Below, piece after piece: positions 14,098 to 61,674 of a stretch of 64,000 nt of DNA (its first letter is position 1; each line of letters starts with the position of its first letter). Under the pieces are notes generated by a model. It was not told the DNA's origin. It saw nothing but the letters and a program-made list of their open reading frames with translations, and searched no databases. Origin of the DNA: a virus (lineage: Duplodnaviria > Caudoviricetes); the IMG/VR virus record IMGVR_UViG_3300032086_004057, positions 1 to 64,000 of that record; one strand, given 5' to 3'. The position numbers and the translations under genes were made by a program.

Positions 14098-14172
14098 TGG
14101 TAGGCAATGAGGGATTCGAACCCCCGACTTTCTCGGTGTAAACGAGACACTCTACCACTGAGTTAATTGCCC
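14098..14172 (-). tRNA. tRNA-Val (TAC)
   Basis: GGGCAAT acceptor stem, ACTC/GAGT D-stem, TCTCG-TTTACAC-CGAGA anticodon arm, GTTCGAATC T-loop and encoded CCA; 75 nt. Confidence 0.96.
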
Positions 14173-22206: not shown

Positions 22207-23061
22207 TTAATAACTTACCGCTCGACCTTTACCATTCTCCCAATCTTTATCTGGTCTGTCATGTTTTTCGTTTCTTTCTTTGGCAGCTTTCAAAATATAG
22301 TTTTTGACTTTAGATTTTTTCATTTGGAAAACTAGAGAATTTACATCCTTTGGAAAACAAGTCCCGCCGTAACCTCTTTTACCGTCTTTACCTGGTACTT
22401 GGCTGTGGCTCTCGCCTATTCTGGGATCGCAAGCTATCAGCTTTCTAACCGTTGGAAAATTTAAATTATTTTTCAAGCAAAACTCTTCTATCTCATTAAA
22501 AAAAGAAACCTTCGTAGCTAGAAAAGTATTTCTACCGTACTTTACTAACTCGGCGTTGCTTGTTGAGGTGAACGTTACCATGCAATTGGATATCACATCA
22601 TTATTGGTGGCAAGCTTAATTAATTCGTAAATTTGTTCAACTAAATTTTCATTTTGATCTATTTTACATATGCCAAAAATTCTGTGGTCATTTTCTTTGA
22701 AATCTTTTGCCCAGTTTTTTTCGGTTAAAAACTCTGGCATAAAATTAACGCCAAGAGATTCGCATGTACCTACGGGAACTGTAGACCTAACGATTATTTT
22801 ATTTTTTTGTATTCCATTTTTTTGGCAATCCTTGATGACGTTTTTTAAAATAGACAAGTCGCACGAGCCATTTTTTTTCATTGGTGTTGGCACGGCTACA
22901 AAAACAAAATCGCAATCTTTTAAATCTTTAAGCTTTGTACCTTTTGGGTAACATCTATTTTCATCTTTGTCGTACCACAAACAGTCTATGCCTTCTGATT
23001 TTAACAATCCAGTTGCGCGACCCACGTATCCATTGCCTACGATTCCTATTTTGAAGCTCAT
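22207..23061 (-). CDS. ugd: UDP-glucose/GDP-mannose dehydrogenase family protein
   Basis: GNGYVG, VAVPTP, PEFLTE, AELVKYGRN and GYGGTCFPKD; lacks the C-terminal UDP-binding domain. Confidence 0.88.
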   Translation of the reverse strand: MSFKIGIVGNGYVGRATGLLKSEGIDCLWYDKDENRCYPKGTKLKDLKDCDFVFVAVPTPMKKNGSCDLSILKNVIKDCQKNGIQKNKIIVRSTVPVGTCESLGVNFMPEFLTEKNWAKDFKENDHRIFGICKIDQNENLVEQIYELIKLATNNDVISNCMVTFTSTSNAELVKYGRNTFLATKVSFFNEIEEFCLKNNLNFPTVRKLIACDPRIGESHSQVPGKDGKRGYGGTCFPKDVNSLVFQMKKSKVKNYILKAAKERNEKHDRPDKDWENGKGRAVSY

Positions 23062-23353: not shown

Positions 23354-23710
23354 CTAGTCAATATTTATTTTTATTGGTTTAGCAGATTCTTTTTTATTTA
23401 TCTGAATATTTAAAATCCCGTTTTCATATTTAGCGGAAATAGAGTTTTTGTCGCAATCTTTTTTTATAAAATAAGTTCTCTTAGATTTACCGCTTTTAAC
23501 GACTAAAAAATCTTCGTCTTTATTGTTTTGCTCGATTGAAACATCTATGTCTTTTTTATGTGTTCCAGCTAAATTAATTTTATAATTATAAGACTCCTCA
23601 TCTTCAGAACAGTCCTCTATGCTGTAGTCAAAATAGTGCACGTTTAATTGGTTGGTTATTTGATTTAACATGTCCACCATTGGGTCTCTAAGAAATATTG
23701 ATTTGTACAT
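23354..23710 (-). CDS. small heat-shock protein (Hsp20/alpha-crystallin)
   Basis: INLAGTHKKDIDV and ISAKYENGILNIQINK. Confidence 0.88.
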   Translation of the reverse strand: MYKSIFLRDPMVDMLNQITNQLNVHYFDYSIEDCSEDEESYNYKINLAGTHKKDIDVSIEQNNKDEDFLVVKSGKSKRTYFIKKDCDKNSISAKYENGILNIQINKKESAKPIKINID

Positions 23711-24859: not shown

Positions 24860-25334
24860 TGTCTGGAATTTCTACTTTCTTTTTTTCAGATAGAGAAGCC
24901 TGATCGTTGGGCTTTTCCTTTATTTGTATAAATTCTATATTATTAAATTCAAATATGCCTTTAATTAAGTCTAGATCATTCTGCTCGTAATCGTCTTGAT
25001 AAATCACTTTCTTAACACCATACGCCGATATCATATTAGCGCAATAAGAGCAGGGAGCTAGAGTGACGGCTAGAATCTTGACTTGATTTTTTTTGCACAA
25101 AGACAGGCAATTCACCTCTGCATGAACCATCAGGGGTCTACGTTCATCCCTACTAAAGTTCTCCCATTTAAGATCAACGCCAGAAGGTAACCCGTTGTAG
25201 CCTACGCCCACAACCATATTCTCATGATTGAGAGCGCAAGCTCCAACTTTAACAAAAGGGTCTTCGCTTCTCGAACTAGCGGCCTTAGCCAACTCAAGGG
25301 CGTACTCCTCCCAAGATGGCCTTTTCTCAACCAC
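24837..25334 (-). CDS. dCMP deaminase
   Basis: VHAEVN and PCSYC zinc motifs; KVGAC and GYNG. Confidence 0.93.
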   Translation of the reverse strand: MVEKRPSWEEYALELAKAASSRSEDPFVKVGACALNHENMVVGVGYNGLPSGVDLKWENFSRDERRPLMVHAEVNCLSLCKKNQVKILAVTLAPCSYCANMISAYGVKKVIYQDDYEQNDLDLIKGIFEFNNIEFIQIKEKPNDQASLSEKKKVEIPDNDPFTIR

Positions 25335-25560
25335 CTAGCGAGCTTTTCTTGTAAACATTTTGAGGTCTACCCATTCCACCCTTTTGCCTAACGATGGTGA
25401 TTTCTCCAGATTCAACGGCTTTGTTTATTCTAGCGTGCACTGACACTCTGGAGAGCTTACCTTGCATCACTGATGCGACTTCTTTAGCTGTGAATTCTGT
25501 ATCGGGCCAATCCAAGAACACTGGCTTTCTACCTCTTTTAGTATTAGTATTTGTAGTCAT
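25327..25560 (-). CDS. small winged-HTH DNA-binding protein
   Basis: FTAKEVA...SRVSVHARINKAVESGEI...GRPQNVY. Confidence 0.65.
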   Translation of the reverse strand: MTTNTNTKRGRKPVFLDWPDTEFTAKEVASVMQGKLSRVSVHARINKAVESGEITIVRQKGGMGRPQNVYKKSSLGG

Positions 25561-25638
25561 CTACCTCGAAGATATATACTTTTTTAAATGTAGTCAATAT
25601 TTTTTGAAAAAAAAAATTTTAATGATAGTGTTTAATAT

Positions 25639-26046
25639 ATGACAATTTTAGAAGCATGTGTTAAAGCTTATAAGTGGTTTGAAAAAAATGATTATTTTGA
25701 GTTAGAAAGAGACTTCAAAAAAGTAGTTTTAATTACCGAATCCGAAGAAGAAGATAAGGCTTGCTTGCTGTGTGCGTTGAATAAACTCGTTGAACAGAAA
25801 GCTATTTCTAAAGGGTACATGCACGGCAAAGATATATACATATTAAATAAACCGTTAGATTCATTGGAGCAAGATGTGACAATAGATGCAGAGACCGCCT
25901 TAAAGGTTTCTGAGGTTATAAACAAATTTTGCGATGAAATTAAAGACCACAAGGATGTGTCTGACCCATCTAAGATAACTAACAAAGATATTTTTAATTT
26001 ATCATTAATTTTAGAGAGTTACCAAAACCAAAATTCTCTTGACTAA
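25639..26046 (+). CDS. hypothetical protein, first gene after the strand switch
   Basis: ORF track, 135 aa. Confidence 0.65.
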   Translation: MTILEACVKAYKWFEKNDYFELERDFKKVVLITESEEEDKACLLCALNKLVEQKAISKGYMHGKDIYILNKPLDSLEQDVTIDAETALKVSEVINKFCDEIKDHKDVSDPSKITNKDIFNLSLILESYQNQNSLD

Positions 26047-26066
26047 ATGTCAAAAAATAATACTAT
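26039..26066 (+). promoter_or_regulatory. sigma70-type promoter
   Basis: TTGACT-N16-TACTAT. Confidence 0.55.
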
Positions 26067-26071
26067 AGAGC

Positions 26072-26465
26072 AAAAGGTTTAAACCCTTTTAACCTCGCTG
26101 AGAGAAATCAGTAGAGTTTCCTGAGACAACCGAAGTAAAGTAGGGTGGTAGCTGGCTTGCTACCAAGTCAAAAGGTAGCCTCTCATTATATACATGAGAC
26201 TTAAAGGACGCACGGTTAATTACCGTGGGAATGCCCGCCGTATTGTGGTATATCAGACGTAATCGAAGTTTTTGAGTACAGTCCCTTCAGCCTTATTAAA
26301 GGTAGTCTGGTAGCGAAAATTATTTCGCCAGTATATTGTCGCAGAATGTCCCATCTGCATAAACAACACAGGGGCTATGGAAAAGCTTCATGGCGTTAAA
26401 GACTATATGCACAGTGCCCCCCTTACTGGGGGGGGTACTTGTGTCTATAGTGCTTGGAAAAGCAT
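26072..26465 (+). ncRNA. candidate large structured ncRNA, or a structured replication-origin region
   Basis: About 400 nt, ORF-free and GC-richer than its flanks, with at least 10 hairpins readable by eye. Confidence 0.55.
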
Positions 26466-26490
26466 TCAGCGTTAGAATATATAAAAAATT

Positions 26491-27216
26491 ATGAATGAAC
26501 AAAAAAATAAACCTACTTCACTATTTGTGGCTACCCCATGCTACGGCGGCATGGTTACACAAGAGTATACATTAAGTATGCTTAATTTGACTCATGCTTG
26601 TTTAATTAATAATATTAATTTAAACGTTAGGTTAGTGGGTAATGAAAGCTTGATTACAAGAGGTAGGAATCATCTTGTTTCAGCATTTATGGCTTCCGAT
26701 TTTGAAAACTTTATGTTTATTGACGCGGACATAGAGTTTGACGCTATGGATGTTATAAAAATGCTAAAGTATGATGAGTTAGTTCTATCTGGGGCTTACC
26801 CGCTAAAGACTGAACCTATCAAGTATGTTGTAAATGGAATGAGTAATGAAAAGCATAATAAATATGAAAATTTACTATCTGTAAGGGATACTGGCACTGG
26901 TTTTTTACTTTTCAAAAGAGAGGTTATAGAAAAAATGAAAAAAGCCTACCCAGAGCTCCATTATGAGACTGATCTAGATTGTGAGTCATACATGGGAATT
27001 CAAGATGAAAATTACAAAAATAAATTAAAGGAAAATCTTTACAGTTTGTTTGACACAATGCATGACACAGAAGATAACAATAGGTACCTATCTGAAGATT
27101 TTACCTTTTGTAAAAGATGGAAAGACATAGGTGGTGAGATTTGGTTGGACACAGACATAAACTTGAGTCATGTTGGTAGAAAGAAATACGTAGGAGATTC
27201 AGATAAAATAAAATGA
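26491..27216 (+). CDS. GT-A fold glycosyltransferase-like protein
   Basis: VATPCYGG, LITRGRN, FIDADI (DxD), GTGF and YLSEDFTFC. Confidence 0.8.
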   Translation: MNEQKNKPTSLFVATPCYGGMVTQEYTLSMLNLTHACLINNINLNVRLVGNESLITRGRNHLVSAFMASDFENFMFIDADIEFDAMDVIKMLKYDELVLSGAYPLKTEPIKYVVNGMSNEKHNKYENLLSVRDTGTGFLLFKREVIEKMKKAYPELHYETDLDCESYMGIQDENYKNKLKENLYSLFDTMHDTEDNNRYLSEDFTFCKRWKDIGGEIWLDTDINLSHVGRKKYVGDSDKIK

Positions 27217-41482: not shown

Positions 41483-41885
41483 GGGGGCGTACTGGTATCG
41501 ATTTAATATCAGACGCTAAAATAGCAAGTCAAGGATGATAGTTGGCCTTGTAAAAATCTATCTAGGTATTCAACTGCCAAAACTGAAGTTGATATGGCTC
41601 CTTCCCTAGCTGAAGCTGACGCGATTCTCGCTAAGTTCGGTTGGGCTGAAGAGGCTGCTGTAGCTGCGTAAGCTACCCGTCCTACTCTGGATGCTCGTTA
41701 AGGAGCTAGGGCGTCGATAACGAGCAAAAAAAGCTAGGAATGAGATGGTCTAGTCTAAATAAAGAGTCTCAAGCCTCGTGCGTAGGTGTTAGTGACGAAG
41801 CACGGGTGTATAACACTGACTAAACTTGTAGAAATTTAAGTTAACGGTATTAAAGACAGGGGTTCAACTCCCCTCGCCTCCACCA
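41483..41885 (+). ncRNA. ssrA: tmRNA
   Basis: GGGGGCG/CGCCTCC acceptor stem with G3.U70, GGTATCGA, T-arm GGGGTTCAACTCCCC and encoded CCA; internal tag ORF ends in AVAA. Confidence 0.96.
41576..41671 (+). other. tmRNA tag reading frame AKTEVDMAPSLAEADAILAKFGWAEEAAVAA
   Basis: Resume context TTCAACT-GCC; 31 codons, then TAA. Confidence 0.8.
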
Positions 41886-55064: not shown

Positions 55065-55645
55065 AGAAAAGTATTATCATTTTAATTCTTGCGGTTAATC
55101 TATCTTTAGCCGCCACTTTTCAATTTAAGGACGGGACTGTAGTAAATGGTGAAATCTTTGAGGAGCCATTTAGTATCGCCAATCCGTCTCCTACTGGAAT
55201 TTTTTTAAAAGTAAATGGTAAATTTTATTTACACCACTATCCATCCAAAGTTCTTAAAAAAGAAGTAATTATTGACCACGGTAATGGTACATACACAATC
55301 AAAGAAGAGAATGAAATTGTCCCAACTCCAGCACCTCCCGAAGCGGGAGAAATGAACCCGTATCAATTACCAAACTGTGTTCCAGCTAGAATTAATTTCA
55401 TTCACTTTTCGCCCAAAACCCTTAACGATTTATACAAATACTATTTCGCAAGAACCGCATACTTTAAAAAAGTAAATAACCCTCTAGAGTTTCGCAATAA
55501 TAAAAATATTGCTCTTGGAATTTACAAGGCTGCTTACTCAAAAAAATATAAGCTCAATTCTCCTAAATTAAGCTCAGAATGGAAAGCAAAAGTAAACAAA
55601 GAGTATGGAAAAATTCCGTCCAGCGTTACTTGGTTTGGTAACTAA
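55061..55645 (+). CDS. secreted hypothetical protein (Sec signal peptide)
   Basis: MKKSIIILILAVNLSLA-ATF. Confidence 0.6.
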   Translation: MKKSIIILILAVNLSLAATFQFKDGTVVNGEIFEEPFSIANPSPTGIFLKVNGKFYLHHYPSKVLKKEVIIDHGNGTYTIKEENEIVPTPAPPEAGEMNPYQLPNCVPARINFIHFSPKTLNDLYKYYFARTAYFKKVNNPLEFRNNKNIALGIYKAAYSKKYKLNSPKLSSEWKAKVNKEYGKIPSSVTWFGN

Positions 55646-58600
55646 AGCTTTGATTGATTCCAAAAGTCGTTGTTATGATCAGCTTGCTCCTTAGTCTTTG
55701 GAGTAAACCTTACACCCTTTAATCCTTTTCTTATGCCACTTAGTTTCACGGTAACTTCTTCAGGTATATTACCTGAGAACGTAATTATTAATTTATTTTC
55801 TTTTACTTTAACCCCACATAGAGCGGGTTCCGTAGTGGTATAACTCACAGCTTTGATTGAGTTTTGCTCGCATACAAAAACGAACTCTGGATCAATTTCT
55901 TGCTCTATTTTAAGTCTCCCGTTAGCCTTTATAGATACAACGTCTTCGAATCTTACATCAGGAGATTCTACACAATACAAATCTACATATTGACCGCTAA
56001 CGCTTTCAACTATGGCCGTTTTAATCGGGTCTCCCGCTTGAGAACTTACATTTCTTACTTCGTCTTCAAAAGTGAAGCCTGACGAATCCCAGCTACTACT
56101 GGATACATAAGCCCATACTGGTGTCGCGCCATAGCTCGTTAAAACTTGACCGTTTTCACCTTCAGTTTCACCCCCTGAACCGTCACTAGCGACAATTCTA
56201 CAACCAGCGGCTGGGTCTATTACCTGCCCAGCTAAATGTATACCTGAACCCGCATTGATATGCATGTTCGCGCCAACATTAAGCTCGGTGTCTGTTATAG
56301 TTACCCCTACATTTACCACGTATGGTAGGTCTGTTGACCCTTGAGCGTCACCCGTAACCCCCAAGTATAAACCATGAACACCATCTAAAGTCCATCTATC
56401 ATCGTAAAATATTACTGCTTGAGGCTGTGGTAAATCTCCGTTTCCACTTGGGTAAGCATCTCTATGCAGGTAAATGTGAGGTCTAAAATCAGAATCGTAT
56501 GAGGTGTTGCCGCTTTCGTTCTTACAGGCGAATATATTTATACCATTTCCTGTAACATTGTACAAATCTACAGCACGATCAGAGTTGCTCCCAACGCTCA
56601 CCGTGGGATATCTATCTGCTGCTAAACCCTGAGCAAATTGACCTCCAGCTAAAGAATTTCTTTTAATTACTTTATTGCTATCAACTACTAAAACATCAGT
56701 CGCGTTAGAGTCGGTTGATATACAATCCAAGTAAACATCACCACTAAAGTGATGATTGTTTGAGCACTCGGCTCCGAAGAACGAATCCCCAGAAGAGAAT
56801 AAAGTAGTTCCTGCTTGACCAATATTTAAAGTCCCAACGTCGCCACCGAAATTTATAGTACCTGGTGTATTTGCTCCAGCCTGATCAAGTATGTTTACGA
56901 TAGGAGACGTTGAAGTGATATCAAAAGCTGAAGTGTTACGTAAACCTAATACAGCCCCGCTGAAAACATGCTGATCGATGTTAGAATCACCAAACTGGGT
57001 ATGACCCAGACCCGTTATATTACCCGTTACCAACAAGCTGCCAGCGGTATATATATCTCCGCAGTCTTGATTTATATCCCCTGATACATAATGGATATTG
57101 CTGCACGGGCCTTCCCCAAATGCTTTACCTTGAACGCCTTGAACTCCTTGAGCACCATTATTACCTTGATTACCTTGATTACCTTGAGCTCCAGCGTCTC
57201 CTTGATTACCTTGAGCACCATTATTTCCAGCGGCACCTTGATTGCCTTGAGCGCCGTTATTTCCAGCGACACCTTGTCTACCTTGGGCACCTTGATCGCC
57301 ATCTGATGGACCTTGAATGCCCTGAACTCCTTGATAACCTTGATTACCTTGATTACCTTGAGCTCCAGCGTTACCTTGATTGCCTTGAGCGCCATTATTA
57401 CCAGCGGTACCTTGTCTGCCTTGAGCACCTTGAGCGCCGTTATTCCCAGCGGCACCTTGAGCACCATTATTACCAGCGACACCTTGTCTGCCTTGAGCAC
57501 CTTGGTCTCCATCTGATGGACCTTGAACACCCTGAACTCCTTGAGCTCCTTGATTGCCTTGATTACCTTGAGCACCATTATTACCAGCAACGCCTTGTCT
57601 ACCTTGAGCACCTTGGTCTCCATCTGATGGGCCTTGAACGCCCTGAACTCCTTGAGCTCCTTGATTACCTTGATTACCTTGAGCACCATTATTACCAGCA
57701 ACGCCTTGTCTGCCTTGAGCACCTTGATCTCCATCTGATGGACCTTGAACCCCTTGAACACCTTGGATACCTTGAACGCCTTGTGTACCTTGTCTACCTT
57801 GAGCACCTTGGTCTCCATCAGATGGACCTTGCACACCTTGAATACCTTGAACGCCTTGTGTACCTTGATTGCCTTGGTTACCTTGGTTACCTTGGTTACC
57901 TTGAGCGCCCCCAGCGCCCGCAGCACCTTGAGCGCCGTTATTTCCAGCGACACCTTGTCTGCCTTGAGCACCTTGGTCGCCATCTGATGGACCTTGAACT
58001 CCCTGTCTGCCTTGTGCGCCTTGGGCTCCTTGATTACCTTGATCGCCTTGAGCTCCCGCAACTCCTTGATTACCTTGGTTACCCTGATTACCTTGGTTTC
58101 CTTGGTTACCCTGATTACCTTTAACGCCTTGAGACCCTTGATTACCCTGAGAGCCTGTAGAACCTTGAGCTCCTTGGTCTCCGTCAGATGGACCTTGAAC
58201 GCCCTGAACTCCTTGAGCTCCTTGATTACCTTGATTACCTTGATTACCTTGAGCTCCAGCGTCTCCTTGATTACCTTGAGCACCATTATTTCCAGCGGCA
58301 CCTTGATTGCCTTGAGCGCCGTTATTTCCAGCGACACCTTGTCTACCTTGGGCACCTTGATCGCCATCTGATGGACCTTGTACACCCTGAGTACCCTGAA
58401 CACCTTGAGCACCTTGATCTCCATCAGATGGACCTTGCACACCTTGGATGCCTTGGATACCTTGGATACCTTGAACCCCCTGAATACCTTGGTTACCTTG
58501 GTTACCTTGGTTACCTTGGGCTCCGTTTACACCAGAGACGCCTTGTCTGCCTTGGGCACCTTGATTTCCTTGGTTGCCTTGTCTACCTTGAGCACCTTGG

Positions 58601-61600
58601 TCTCCATCTGGTGGGCCTTGAACGCCCTGAACTCCTTGAGCTCCTTGATTGCCTTGATTACCTTGGTCTCCTTGAGGCCCGTCGTTACCTTGGCTACCTT
58701 GACTTCCTTGATTCCCTTGATTGCCCTGAGACCCTGTGGCCCCTTGGTTTCCTTGGGCACCTTGATTACCATTGTCCCCTTGAGCTCCTTGATTGCCTTG
58801 ATTACCTTGGTTACCTTGAGCACCTTGGTCTCCATCTGATGGACCTTGAACCCCTTGAACCCCTTGAACACCTTGAGCGCCTTGATCTCCATCAGATGGA
58901 CCTTGTACACCTTGGATACCTTGGATGCCTTGAATTCCCTGAGTGCCTTGGGCTCCAGCACTACCTTGATTGCCCTGAGCACCTTGATTGCCCTGAGCAC
59001 CTTGATTGCCCTGAGCACCTTGATAGCCTTGATAACCTTGTTCGCCTTGATAGCCTTGATAACCTTGGACACAGCTACCTTTGCATATTGTTATGTCTTC
59101 AGTAGTGTCTATGTTAGCGAAAATTGCATTACCATTAACAAAAACTTCAGTGCTAGAAATCTCAATTTCAGCGTCCACCTGAACGACTTCACTTGGCGTG
59201 GCGTTTGTCGTAAATCTTACGCAGACATTTTCTCCGTGAACCCAGTTTGATTTACTAGATAAAATTTCTAATCTATTATCGTTTAGCTTGTTGTAGCCAG
59301 CGGTAAAATACGACAAACAAGATGATGTCCCTTGATGCCCTTGGTAACCTTGATACCCTTGATGACCCTGATCACCTTTAGGTGGACAAGGACCATGACA
59401 AAATAAGAAGCCAGCCGTTTTATCCGCAGTTATATTTGCGTATTCTGAATCAAAAGTAACGAGCCACGAATTACTTTGCCCATTATTATTCGGACCTTTG
59501 AGTGCGCCCTGTACTAATTCATAAACTGTTGCAGAACCATTCTCTTGTTGAGAAAGGCTTACACAAACTTTTAATCCATTGACTGAATCATGCGGCCAAC
59601 ATTGACTTGTAAAAGGGGTTAAAGAAGCATCTGCAAAAGATATTTCTCCCGCAGAAACACTTATATTAGAACTATCGACAATATACTCGCACGCAGGGCA
59701 TCCTGAAAGACCTTGATAACCTTGATACCCTTGATAACCTTGATAACCTTGATAACCTTGATAACCTTGGTGGCCCTGATGACCCTGATACCCTTGGTAT
59801 CCTTGATGACCTTGATAACCTTGGTGGCCCTGATGCCCCTGATACCCTTGGTATCCTTGATAACCTTGATACCCTTGGTACCCTTGGTGTCCTTGATAAC
59901 CTTGGTACCCTTGGTGTCCTTGATAACCTTGATACCCTTGATAACCTTGGTGGCCTTGATAGCCTTGGTGACCTTGATATCCTTGATACCCTTGGTAACC
60001 TTGGTAACCTTGATAACCTTGGTAACCCTGATAACCTTGGTAACCCTGATAACCTTGGTACCCTTGGTAGCCTTGATTCCCCGCTTCGCTACAAACACCG
60101 TGGCAAACAGTAATAGGGTAAGCACTATAATCTACATCCACTACTGATACTGTAGTACCAGTTACATAAAGGTCGCCAAAATCATCAACATCAATACCTC
60201 CGTTTACTTTTATTTTTTCGCCGTCATAATTATACCCGTGAAGACAAACGTTTTCACCACTTCTCCAGTCTATTGCAACTTGCGCGGTATCTGGGAAGTA
60301 AAGTACATTAGTTATTGACGGGTTTGCATCAGGTGAGAATTGTTCATTTGGGAATCCTGAGTAACTAACACACGCGGAAATACCTTGATAACCTTGGTAG
60401 CCTTGGTAGCCTTGGCCTTGGTAGCCTTGATAACCCTGAAAACCTTGATACCCTTGGTTGCCTTGAAGACAATCATCAGCATCAACACCAGATATACCTG
60501 GCATGGGATTATCAAGCGCGTTGCAAAAAGCAGTTGCTTCACCTGTTGTTCCAAAAATAAAGTGTTCTTGCCCATCTTGTTCATCTGGCTGCTGTAAATT
60601 CGCCTCTACTGTCCAACGTGTGTTACTATCAGTAGTACCATTCCAGTTTACCCAAACTGATACGTATGGCTTTATAAGTGCTGTTACCTCATCTATGGTA
60701 ACTCCAGTTGTAAGAGGCCCAGAGCCATCTCTTGCGGGTGCCCAAGAATCAGTTGGATCACTATCACCACGACTTATATTGAGTAATATATCAGCAGCAT
60801 CAATACAATTTGTAATCGGCTGTTTAACATGATCAGGAGGAGCACCAGTTCTGCACGGGTCATCTGCGGTTAACGTTCTTACGTAATCAATGTCCGAATT
60901 AACTATCGTAATCCAATCAGGTACAGATTGGGGATTAAAAGTAACGTTTAACGTGCCACTATTGCAAACAGAAAGACCAAAATCAAAATCATAAACTACA
61001 GCCTCATCGCTAGACCCACCTGCGCTCGTGTCTTGAGTGGAGCAATCGTTTGTGCACTGATAACAACCTACGCTTGATACACCGCCAGACGGACCTTGAA
61101 CGCCTTCAATTCCTTGATACCCTTGATACCCCTGATGACCTGCACCAGCACCAGAAACTCCTCCGCCTTTTAATACTGGTGTAGAAAGTAATTTATACGA
61201 ATAAATTAAAGCATCGCTTTGATTTTCTGGGGCTGGACTATAGTTAGCGCCATATTTTTCTACAGCTTGTCTTACGTTGCTAGAAGCGTATTTGCCACCA
61301 GTATGCTCAATTGGCGCGTTGTATTTTACGCATTGAAGTTTCGCCCCGTTCAATAAAGGAGCAACAAACTCTTGGCTGTATACCCCGAATGCCACTTCGG
61401 TTTCATTTATTAATAGAGAATCCCCGTTTGCCCCTGTTACTTTTAAAAGATTTTCCCTGAAAGCATTTTCAGGTTTTTCAATTACATAAAAATTATTATC
61501 TTTTTCTCTTTTACCTATAAAAAATGTACTTAATTGATTTAAATCGCTGCTGCTAGTTGTAGTAAAAGAATACTTAGTTCCACCATCTTTATTATCGTCT

Positions 61601-61674
61601 AAACCAACAAGAATAAGCTCCTCTGTTTCAGCAGGAAGCTGTGTAATTTCTGGTATTATAATCGGTCTTGACAT
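55642..61674 (-). CDS. collagen-like (Gly-X-Gln) tail fibre/spike protein
   Basis: Long [15 protein letters not shown] tracts interrupted by Cys-flanked globular domains; C-terminal [20 protein letters not shown] domain. Confidence 0.85.
57160..57315 (-). repeat. about 156-bp exact direct repeat within the fibre gene (second copy at 58225-58380)
   Basis: Direct sequence comparison; offset 1065 bp (in frame). Confidence 0.85.
59700..60075 (-). repeat. 9-bp GG(N)-YAY-CAR tandem tract encoding GYQ/GHQ
   Basis: About 40 consecutive triplets. Confidence 0.9.

What the first reader, a model, noticed from the sequence alone, without database searches (positions are those of the whole stretch)
25327..26490. 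Strand switch plus a 400-nt highly structured element: large ncRNA or replication origin
Gene polarity flips at about 25.6 kb, flanked by a small wHTH gene. After one ORF, a sigma70 promoter leads into about 400 ORF-free nt packed with stems: AAAAGG/CCTTTT, GCTGA/TCAGT, TGGTAGC/GCTACCA, TCTCAT/ATGAGA, CACGGT/ACCGTG, GCGAAA/TTTCGC, GCAGA/TCTGC, GCTATG/CATGGC, a roughly 20-bp irregular hairpin at 26402-26451 with a C6/G8 core, and TGCTT-GGAA-AAGCA (GNRA loop). It is not tmRNA, RNase P or SRP by motif. It could be a new large phage ncRNA, a regulatory leader for the glycan/replication operon, or an R-loop-primed origin.
Basis: partly seen in the sequence, partly recalled or inferred. Interest (0 to 1): 0.75.

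Follow-up and report, generated by a model that had tools for sequence, protein, structure and literature searches.

The report
New knotted twin-box phage RNA
The gene-free 440 bases hold a real gene for an intricately folded, doubly knotted non-coding RNA of about 385-400 bases that is in no RNA catalogue, is shared by well over a hundred uncultured marine phage contigs, and carries a short unit that is repeated just behind its terminator and always changes in step with it; its job is unknown.

Summary

It is a free-standing RNA gene on the + strand. It has a sigma70-like promoter (26039-26066), about 14 helices, two covariation-supported pseudoknots and an intrinsic-terminator-like hairpin (about 26400-26452).

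Homologues were found in 38 IMG/VR loci, 110 marine metagenome contigs and one binned MAG contig. None was found in cultured phages, and none matches Rfam 15.

On 31 sequences, 42 chosen pairs are 97.9% paired, against 39-51% when partners are slid. Twenty-three pairs show compensatory changes.

In five loci the RNA lies between other genes, about 2 kb from the strand switch. So it is neither a leader of the glycan operon nor tied to the polarity flip, and nothing supports an origin.

The oddest feature is a 25-30-nt unit inside the RNA (window box TGGAAAAGC, 26378-26386) that recurs just after the terminator (26455-26463). The two copies evolve in concert across the family.

This scan has noted 'twin-box' phage RNAs with the same hallmarks on other DNA. 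Homology to them could not be tested.

Function is unknown. My best guess is a trans-acting scaffold or decoy RNA.

The parts
25327..25560 (-). Small ORF (77 aa), last gene of the leftward block. Neighbour only, not part of the RNA.
   Evidence: ORF list. No Pfam family; PHROG 25395 of unknown function. Conserved neighbour 'cluster 5' in 19 loci.
25639..26046 (+). ORF1 (135 aa, acidic), the usual upstream neighbour. Winged-helix-like N-terminal fold.
   Evidence: Present in 28 of 30 loci, and directly upstream of the RNA in most. No Pfam or PHROG family. AF2 pLDDT 90.8. Weak Foldseek matches to winged-helix DNA binders (E 0.02-0.1).
26039..26066 (+). Sigma70-like promoter of the RNA (TTGACT-16-TACTAT)
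   Evidence: Scan tool. Equivalent sites in L104 and L139. 62 of 74 family members have a match of 8/12 or better upstream, often TTGAC[AT].
26072..26116 (+). 5' hairpins. H1 is 26072-26077/26085-26090. H2 is 26094-26100/26109-26116, with a near-invariant loop AGAGAAAU.
   Evidence: H2 is 98.2% paired with compensatory changes. It is the most conserved stretch of the family.
26117..26201 (+). U-rich strand GUUUCCUGAG. H4 (CC 26130-26131 with GG 26143-26144), with loop GAAGUAAAGUA. H5 is 26146-26152/26159-26165. H6 is 26181-26186/26194-26199.
   Evidence: The hairpins keep their place while their sequence changes. H4 stem varies as GCU/AGC and UCC/GGA in relatives.
26206..26312 (+). Pseudoknotted core. 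PK1 is GGAC 26206-26209 with GUCC 26281-26284. H7 is 26211-26216/26222-26227. H8 is CC 26235-26236 with GG 26247-26248. H9 is 26251-26258/26305-26312. H10 is 26265-26268/26285-26288. H11 is 26291-26294/26299-26302.
   Evidence: the count of structure pairs: PK1 99.2% paired with 3 of 4 pairs covarying, H7 98.9% with 5 of 6, H9 98.2% with 6 of 7. On 76 sequences PK1 is paired in 301 of 304 cells.
26313..26408 (+). 3' domain. H12 is 26313-26318/26323-26328. H14 is 26333-26340/26401-26408 and encloses H13 (26341-26345/26354-26358). PK2 is CCC 26350-26352 with GGG 26371-26373. H16 is 26374-26379/26389-26394, with box 1 in its loop.
   Evidence: H13 and PK2 counts. H14 duplex energy is -10.1 within a genome, -7.3 across genomes and -6.1 shuffled.
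26378..26386 (+). Box 1 (TGGAAAAGC), the core of twin unit 1
   Evidence: Exact repeat of 26455-26463. Units 1 and 2 evolve in concert.
26400..26452 (+). H15: long C6/G8 hairpin, intrinsic-terminator-like
   Evidence: Family-wide median 14 bp and -19.9 kcal/mol, with 4 or more U in the next 8 nt in 53 of 76. Called terminator-like by the tool in L104, L122 and L139, but not in the window itself, whose tail is less U-rich.
26453..26476 (+). Twin unit 2 behind the terminator, with box 2 (TGGAAAAGC, 26455-26463). Conserved end of the module.
   Evidence: Present in every family member whatever gene follows.

Best explanation
Window 26072 to about 26455-26476 (+ strand) is a self-contained gene for a non-coding RNA of about 385-400 nt. 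It belongs to an uncatalogued family of uncultured marine phages.

Shown: the RNA is conserved as a fold of about 14 helices with two pseudoknots. It has its own sigma70-like promoter and ends in a strong terminator-like hairpin. It moves as a module between two positions in the nucleotide-metabolism region. A 25-30-nt unit inside it (an A-rich box plus flank) is duplicated right behind the terminator, and the two copies change together.

Inferred: the RNA is made early as a discrete stable transcript and acts in trans, as a scaffold or decoy that presents the A-rich box on a rigid knotted core to some partner, either protein or RNA. The identical copy behind the terminator would let the same partner read the read-through transcript, which gives a feedback or titration loop.

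My odds: real structured RNA gene 0.95; trans-acting rather than purely cis 0.5; the decoy/feedback reading of the twin units 0.25.
For: No Rfam 15 family matches the window or 16 homologous loci, at gathering score or at E <= 10.

Homologues: 38 IMG/VR loci giving 30 distinct sequences, 110 of 112 metagenome pattern hits, and one MAG contig.

The element is 100% identical in L001/L002, apart from the length of one G-run, while the next protein is 94% identical.

RNAalifold gives 39 pairs, 18 of them with compensatory changes. For 42 chosen pairs including both pseudoknots, 97.9% are paired against 38.8-51.4% when slid. There are 23 pairs and 191 cells with double changes, and 0 of 500 shuffles reach this. 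The pattern holds on 76 non-redundant sequences.

Conserved G-U pairs (26097/26112, and the base pairs of H9 and H15) fit only the + strand.

Promoter and terminator. Sub-threshold Rfam hits are sRNA and leader models that end at the terminator hairpin.

The position varies and so does the gene behind it.

Twin units: local score within a genome is 13.3, against 8.2 across genomes and 6.0 shuffled, with 34 different shared words.
Against: RNA ends, abundance and termination efficiency are therefore unknown.

In the window itself the tail after the hairpin is not U-rich enough for the terminator scan.

No partner has been identified. The complement of the box is not enriched in the 64-kb window. 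ORF1 is acidic and looks like a DNA binder, not an RNA binder.

Unit 2 lies beyond the presumed terminator, which fits a cis (read-through) role at least as well.

The alignment used for counting was made by MAFFT and the pairs were picked by me, although the slid controls argue against bias.
Confidence: 0.45

Rival explanations
1. Cis-acting attenuator or antitermination leader. The large knotted domain senses a factor or metabolite and decides whether RNA polymerase stops at the H15 terminator or reads on into the following early or middle genes. H14 (seg1:seg2) acts as antiterminator against the lower terminator stem. Unit 2 takes part in refolding the read-through form.
For: The RNA always has the orientation of the flanking genes and sits just upstream of one.

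A strong terminator-like hairpin is present.

In several lineages seg2 can pair either with seg1 (H14) or with the 3' half of the terminator. Terminator-lower-stem energy is -7.0 within a genome against -5.6 across genomes.

Unit 2 lies in the read-through part.
Against: The downstream gene differs between loci, and some loci have a strong promoter of their own behind the RNA.

In other lineages (L082/L003 type) H14 and the terminator use adjacent, non-overlapping segments and can coexist.

At about 300 nt, the putative sensor is far larger than any known riboswitch aptamer.

No match to T-box, put, EAR or any leader family.
Confidence: 0.25
2. RNA-only architecture or ribozyme. Like ROOL, GOLLD and OLE, the RNA self-assembles into a homo-oligomer, with A-rich loops pairing with U-rich strands of other copies. 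Alternatively it carries out a catalytic step.
For: The size, the many helices, two pseudoknots and near-invariant loop and junction sequences all fit.

There are two U-rich strands (GAGUUUUCC after H2, GAGUUUUU in the H10 loop) and three A-rich loops that could pair with them.

It is phage-borne, like ROOL and GOLLD (PMC12286853).
Against: No covariation separates one U-rich/A-rich pairing from another.

No similarity to any ribozyme or ornate RNA family in Rfam.

Nothing here tests assembly or catalysis.
Confidence: 0.12
3. Replication origin. The transcript primes DNA synthesis through an R-loop, as with ColE1 RNA II or T4 oriF/oriG. The twin units are iteron-like DNA sites for a winged-helix initiator (ORF1 or the 77-aa protein).
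For: Direct repeats that stay identical within a replicon and differ between replicons are typical of iterons (established knowledge).

A winged-helix-like protein is encoded next door in most loci.

The cumulative GC-skew minimum lies at 24-26 kb.
Against: The skew follows gene orientation and is no independent evidence.

There are only two repeats, always purine-rich on the transcribed strand.

The bulk of the conservation is RNA-level: G-U pairs and pseudoknot covariation.

In five loci the module is about 2 kb from the strand switch and from ORF1.
Confidence: 0.06

Closest known systems
GOLLD (RF01998), ROOL (RF03087), OLE and raiA: large 'ornate' non-coding RNAs (PMC12286853, PMC10861870)
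   Same: It is a large, multi-helix, pseudoknotted RNA with highly conserved loops. It is free-standing and carried by phages (as GOLLD and ROOL are), and its function is unknown.
   Different: There is no sequence or structure match in Rfam at any threshold tried. It is shorter, at about 390 nt against 580-800. It is not next to tRNA genes in the window. It has the twin-unit feature and a terminator between the copies. Oligomerisation was not tested.
'Twin-box structured RNA' of uncultured marine and lake T4-like or jumbo phages, noted earlier in this scan (for example e1-5753587, e1-5834986, e1-5339112). These are unpublished AI notes.
   Same: It is about 340-440 nt with two pseudoknots and appears in no catalogue. 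It occurs in uncultured aquatic phages and carries one short word written twice, with the copies changing together. All of these features were found independently here.
   Different: No shared sequence words with any earlier window. These phages have a DnaE-type polymerase, not a T4-type one. There is no GIY-YIG nuclease beside the RNA. There is no trace of the Polynucleobacter-1 motif (RF01718) that some of those notes name.
Protein-titrating RNAs (CsrB/RsmZ, 6S RNA)
   Same: It is a stand-alone, promoter-to-terminator RNA that displays a repeated short motif in hairpin loops. This is a resemblance from general knowledge.
   Different: The motif is A-rich, not GGA. There are only two or three copies. 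The motif varies between lineages. No binding protein is known.
Transcription attenuators and processive antitermination RNAs (trp-type leaders, HK022 put, EAR)
   Same: It has a promoter-proximal structured RNA followed by a terminator, with alternative pairings of one strand.
   Different: It is five to six times larger. There is no leader peptide and no family match. The downstream genes vary and may have their own promoter.
Anonymous candidates in 'Identification of over ten thousand candidate structured RNAs in viruses and phages' (PMC10690425)
   Same: That study mined intergenic regions of IMG/VR, the same collection that holds 38 of my loci, so this abundant covarying element may be among its 10,006 unnamed candidates.
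   Different: The text does not describe it, and the supplementary lists are not held. This could not be checked.

Membership tests
Any Rfam 15 family (including tmRNA, RNase P, SRP, 6S, group I/II introns, GOLLD, ROOL, OLE, HEARO, IMES, raiA, riboswitches) | Covariance-model score at or above the family's gathering score | tested here: not met
   Across the whole window only tmRNA (41483-41885) and tRNA-Val match. Fourteen homologous loci give only two tRNAs.
Any Rfam 15 family | A consistent sub-threshold match (E <= 10) in several homologues | tested here: not met
   The window, L122 and L133 versions give unrelated weak hits. Most are sRNA or leader models aligned to the terminator hairpin.
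Polynucleobacter-1 motif (RF01718), named in earlier scan notes as closest to 'twin-box' RNAs | A match to the RF01718 model | tested here: not met
   Not listed even at E <= 10 in three family members.
Scan-internal 'twin-box' phage RNA | About 340-440 nt, with two pseudoknots supported by covariation | tested here: met
   PK1 is 99.2% paired with 3 of 4 pairs covarying. PK2 is 97.8% paired with double changes (CUC/GAG, GCC/GGC).
Scan-internal 'twin-box' phage RNA | One short word present twice, the two copies changing together | tested here: met
   The shared word is 6-11 nt (median 9) with 34 variants. Score within a genome is 13.3 against 8.2 across genomes.
Scan-internal 'twin-box' phage RNA | Sequence or structure homology to the earlier examples | not testable with these tools
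   Look-ups by sequence with four family members found no related window. The earlier sequences are not shown.
Intrinsic (Rho-independent) terminator, for H15 | A GC-rich stem-loop directly followed by a U-tract | tested here: inconclusive
   Met in L104, L122 and L139 and in 53 of 76 members by a count of 4 or more U in 8 nt. Not met by the scan in the window itself. Function not tested.
Iteron-type or R-loop replication origin | Several direct repeats bound by an initiator, an adjacent AT-rich unwinding element, and a skew or coverage signal independent of gene orientation | tested here: not met
   There are only two repeats. The skew minimum coincides with the change of coding strand. The module lies away from the switch in five loci. 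Binding and coverage are not testable here.

The most novel reading that the evidence does not exclude
The twin units mark a regulatory principle not yet described. A knotted phage RNA carries an internal copy of a word that is also written just outside its terminator. Both copies are read by one co-evolving partner, either a phage protein or a second RNA. The short RNA would then titrate or template what happens on the read-through transcript: a self-referential decoy or guide system. This system may be shared with the 'twin-box' RNAs that this scan keeps finding in unrelated aquatic phages.
Probability: 0.25. Interest if true: 0.85.

Novelty: categorically new. Interest (0 to 1): 0.72.

Why it matters
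Large RNAs with many helices and pseudoknots are rare, and each class has either turned out to do something fundamental (ribosome, RNase P, tmRNA, group I/II introns) or is still an open puzzle (GOLLD, ROOL, OLE, raiA).

This one is abundant in ocean metagenomes, including Tara Oceans assemblies. It belongs to a phage lineage with no cultured member.

It also gives a concrete handle for experiments: two short units, one inside the RNA and one just outside its terminator, that must stay identical. Swapping or mismatching them is a direct test of function.

If it is related to the other 'twin-box' RNAs noted in this scan, the feature would be a widespread and unexplained trait of aquatic phages.

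Tried and rejected
- **Known RNA families.** I compared the anatomy by eye with RNase P (P4 / CR-I-like GAAGNAAAGUAGGG), tmRNA, group I intron (P3/P7-type knot, GGUAGUC) and hammerhead (CUGAGAG..GAAA). The topology and conserved cores do not fit, and Rfam finds nothing.
- **Closing stem.** A stem between the U-rich strand after H2 (26117-26125) and the A-rich box is possible (5 + 3 bp). It is not decided by covariation, because U-rich and A-rich strands pair with each other in many registers. RNAalifold's alternative (AAGGG of J5/6 with CUU/UCC near the 3' end) shows only one-sided changes.
- **H17 hairpin.** A hairpin of seg3 with seg4 around box 2 is not supported: -4.05 within a genome, -4.06 across genomes.
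- **Unit 2 displacing unit 1 on seg1.** Only weakly supported: -6.4 against -5.5.
- **Complement of the box elsewhere in the window.** Not enriched.
- **Link to the GT-like gene.** 76 other loci with that gene lack the RNA.
- **Cultured relatives.** None found by DNA or by ORF1 protein. The DNA polymerase is at most 31% identical to any isolate.
- **Bacterial genomes.** One hit only, a 44-kb contig binned as an 'uncultured Pseudomonadales' MAG. The two other pattern hits are chance.
- **Steps that failed.** No whole genome is held for the window. One preprint could not be opened.
- **ORF1 fold search.** It gave only weak winged-helix matches and no functional link to the RNA.
Full report
**Setting.** The window is part of a large AT-rich phage genome of about 34% GC. 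No host genome is held for it.

Nearly identical IMG/VR contigs reach 124.6 kb. The window encodes:
- dCMP deaminase, a dNMP-kinase-like protein and several glycosyltransferases;
- class I ribonucleotide reductase, a DnaB-like helicase and a UvsX-like recombinase;
- a DnaE-type DNA polymerase that is at most 31% identical to that of any cultured phage.

It also carries a tRNA-Val and a one-piece tmRNA.

**The observation.** Genes up to 25327-25560 run leftward. From 25639-26046 (ORF1, 135 aa) they run rightward.

Between ORF1 and the next gene (26491-27216, PHROG 1574, glycosyltransferase-like) lie 444 bases without a credible ORF. These bases are richer in G+C than their surroundings. They fold better than shuffled versions on both strands: z = -3.96 on the + strand and -4.49 on the - strand.

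A sigma70-like promoter, TTGACT-16-TACTAT, overlaps the stop codon of ORF1.

**It is conserved as RNA.**
- The two closest contigs carry the stretch unchanged except for the length of one G-run. Meanwhile the protein next door has diverged to 94%.
- A contig whose neighbouring protein is only 47% identical (L003) has a 73%-identical copy in which stems are rebuilt by paired changes.
- Three independent DNA patterns taken from invariant columns, followed by an nhmmer profile, gave 38 IMG/VR loci with 30 distinct sequences.
- One pattern found the element in 110 of 112 metagenome contigs, many from Tara Oceans assemblies.
- Among 185,579 species genomes the same pattern found it in one MAG contig only.
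- No cultured phage has it.
- None of the versions matches any of the 4227 Rfam families. The only weak hits are small-RNA and leader models aligned to the terminal hairpin.

**Structure.** RNAalifold on 31 sequences predicts 39 pairs, 18 of them with compensatory changes.

I then fixed 42 pairs in ten helices that lie in well-aligned columns, including two pseudoknots, and counted them:

| Measure | Result |
|---|---|
| Cells paired, as fixed | 97.9% |
| Cells paired, partners slid by 1-3 columns | 38.8-51.4% |
| Pairs with changes on both sides | 23 |
| Cells with changes on both sides | 191 |
| Shuffles (of 500) reaching the observed values | 0 |

Individual helices:
- H7 (26211-26216/26222-26227) and H9 (26251-26258/26305-26312) show up to five pair types per position.
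- PK1 joins GGAC (26206-26209), in the junction before H7, to GUCC (26281-26284), in the loop of H10 inside H9. It switches between GGAC/GUCC, AGAC/GUCU, AAAC/GUUU and GGAAU/AUUCC. It is paired in 301 of 304 cells on 76 sequences.
- PK2 joins CCC in the H13 loop (26350-26352) to GGG (26371-26373). Its double changes are CUC/GAG and GCC/GGC.
- H14 (26333-26340/26401-26408) closes the 3' domain. It is supported by duplex energies: -10.1 within a genome, -7.3 across genomes and -6.1 shuffled.
- Variable hairpins H5, H6, H11, H12 and H16 keep their place while their sequences change.

Conserved G-U pairs would be A-C on the other strand. The RNA is therefore read from the + strand, like its neighbours.

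**Ends.**
- A promoter-like site lies at the same distance before H1 in other loci, including those where the RNA sits elsewhere.
- The C-run/G-run hairpin has a median of 14 pairs and -19.9 kcal/mol. In 53 of 76 members it is followed by a U-rich tail.
- The scan tool calls it terminator-like in L104, L122 and L139, though not in the window, where the tail is weaker.
- In L122 a strong promoter (11/12) for the next gene follows the module.

Promoter to terminator gives an RNA of about 385 nt. No transcript data could be obtained.

**Context.** The usual order is:

dUTPase < dCMP deaminase < small ORF < | ORF1 > RNA > (GT-like) > dNMP-kinase-like > ... > RNR.

In five loci the RNA lies instead between dUTPase and a 120-aa ORF. 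There it is on their strand, about 2 kb from ORF1 and from the strand switch. This has three consequences:
- The RNA is a movable module, not the leader of one operon.
- The strand switch is incidental.
- The cumulative GC-skew minimum at 24-26 kb follows coding strand, so it is no evidence for an origin.

ORF1 is acidic and has a winged-helix-like fold by weak Foldseek matches. Nothing ties it to the RNA beyond frequent adjacency.

**The twin units.** The first-stage note on the same stretch (e1-5895473) mentioned two GGAAAAGC stem-loops. Across the family the repeat is much more than that.

A unit of 25-30 nt sits after PK2 inside the RNA. It consists of 'CC', an A-rich word, a few bases, and the strand that forms the 3' half of H14. 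The same unit recurs directly behind the terminator.

The two copies differ between lineages but match within each genome. Examples of the shared word are AAAGAAAAA, AGGAAAAA, AAAAGAGUU, AGAAAAAUGUU, AAAAGCAG, GAAAAGAGA, AAAGGAAAC, and UGGAAAAGC in this window at 26378-26386 and 26455-26463.

| Comparison of unit 1 with unit 2 | Mean local alignment score |
|---|---|
| Same genome | 13.3 |
| Different genomes | 8.2 |
| Shuffled | 6.0 |

For 37 of 69 sequences no foreign unit 2 fits better than the genome's own. Unit 2 travels with the module whatever gene follows.

I found no pairing partner that explains this:
- The hairpin seg3:seg4 is not supported.
- Displacement of unit 1 from seg1 is not supported.
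- The U-rich strands are almost invariant while the boxes vary.
- The complement of the box is not enriched in the window.

After seeing this I found that the scan has repeatedly noted 'twin-box' RNAs of 340-440 nt with two pseudoknots in uncultured aquatic T4-like and jumbo phages. The hallmarks agree. But look-ups by sequence share nothing, these phages are not T4-like, and I could not compare the sequences. Kinship stays open.

**How it most likely works.**
- Shown: a conserved, knotted, independently promoted RNA with a terminator-like 3' hairpin and co-evolving twin units.
- Inferred: a discrete early transcript acts in trans as a scaffold or decoy that displays the A-rich box. The copy behind the terminator lets the same partner act on read-through transcripts.

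I give the trans reading about 0.5 and this particular loop about 0.25.

| Rival reading | Odds | Main points |
|---|---|---|
| Cis attenuator | 0.25 | In some lineages the 3' strand of H14 can instead extend the terminator stem. In others the two helices coexist, and the downstream genes vary. |
| Self-assembling or catalytic RNA in the manner of ROOL/GOLLD | 0.12 | Not tested here. |
| Origin with iteron-like repeats | 0.06 | No positive support. |

**Novelty.**
- No family in Rfam 15 matches.
- No paper in the held library contains its conserved words.
- The literature searches gave only the known ornate RNAs and a bulk catalogue of 10,006 unnamed viral candidates. That catalogue may include this element, but its lists are not held.

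I rate it as a new RNA class, with three caveats: its function is unknown, it may already sit unnamed in that catalogue, and this scan has seen look-alike 'twin-box' RNAs on other DNA.

Noticed in passing
window 41483-41885 (+): A phage-encoded one-piece tmRNA (Rfam 135.3 bits). Its tag peptide is unusually long, AKTEVDMAPSLAEADAILAKFGWAEEAAVAA. It lies between the UvsX-like recombinase gene and a 138-aa ORF.
   Followed up: no
window 14098-14172 (-): tRNA-Val (anticodon TAC), the only tRNA in the window.
   Followed up: no
window 26429-26436 against L001/L002: The G-run of the terminator hairpin is G8 here and G5 in two otherwise identical contigs. This is either a homopolymer length polymorphism or a sequencing artefact, and it is the only difference in 440 nt.
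   Followed up: partly
window 55642-61674 (-): A 2010-aa ORF in a stretch with much higher G+C (0.47 against 0.34) and many overlapping ORFs on both strands. It is followed by a 618-aa protein with virion, baseplate and fibre-like PHROG hits.
   Followed up: no
L187:3888-4278 and L187:4455-4549: One metagenome contig has a full copy of the RNA and, about 180 nt further on, a second partial match (model positions 248-342) cut by the contig end. This may be a tandem second copy.
   Followed up: no
L138:3251-3428 (-): In one relative, two tRNA genes lie about 680 nt downstream of the RNA on the same strand. This recalls the tRNA neighbourhood of GOLLD and ROOL, but it is not seen in the window.
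   Followed up: no
window 25639-26046 (+) and 25327-25560 (-): Two small genes face away from each other across a 78-nt AT-rich gap that holds promoter-like sites on both strands. ORF1 folds as a winged helix plus helical tail (pLDDT 90.8), is acidic, and has no relatives among cultured phages.
   Followed up: partly
window 23354-23710 (-) and 22207-23061 (-): The phage encodes an Hsp20/alpha-crystallin-like small heat-shock protein and a UDP-glucose/GDP-mannose dehydrogenase-like protein upstream of the nucleotide-metabolism block.
   Followed up: no
L141 (CAZYHH010000001.1, 44-kb contig): The only hit among 185,579 species genomes is a contig binned as 'uncultured Pseudomonadales bacterium'. 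It is probably a phage contig in the bin, and it may hint at a marine gammaproteobacterial host.
   Followed up: no
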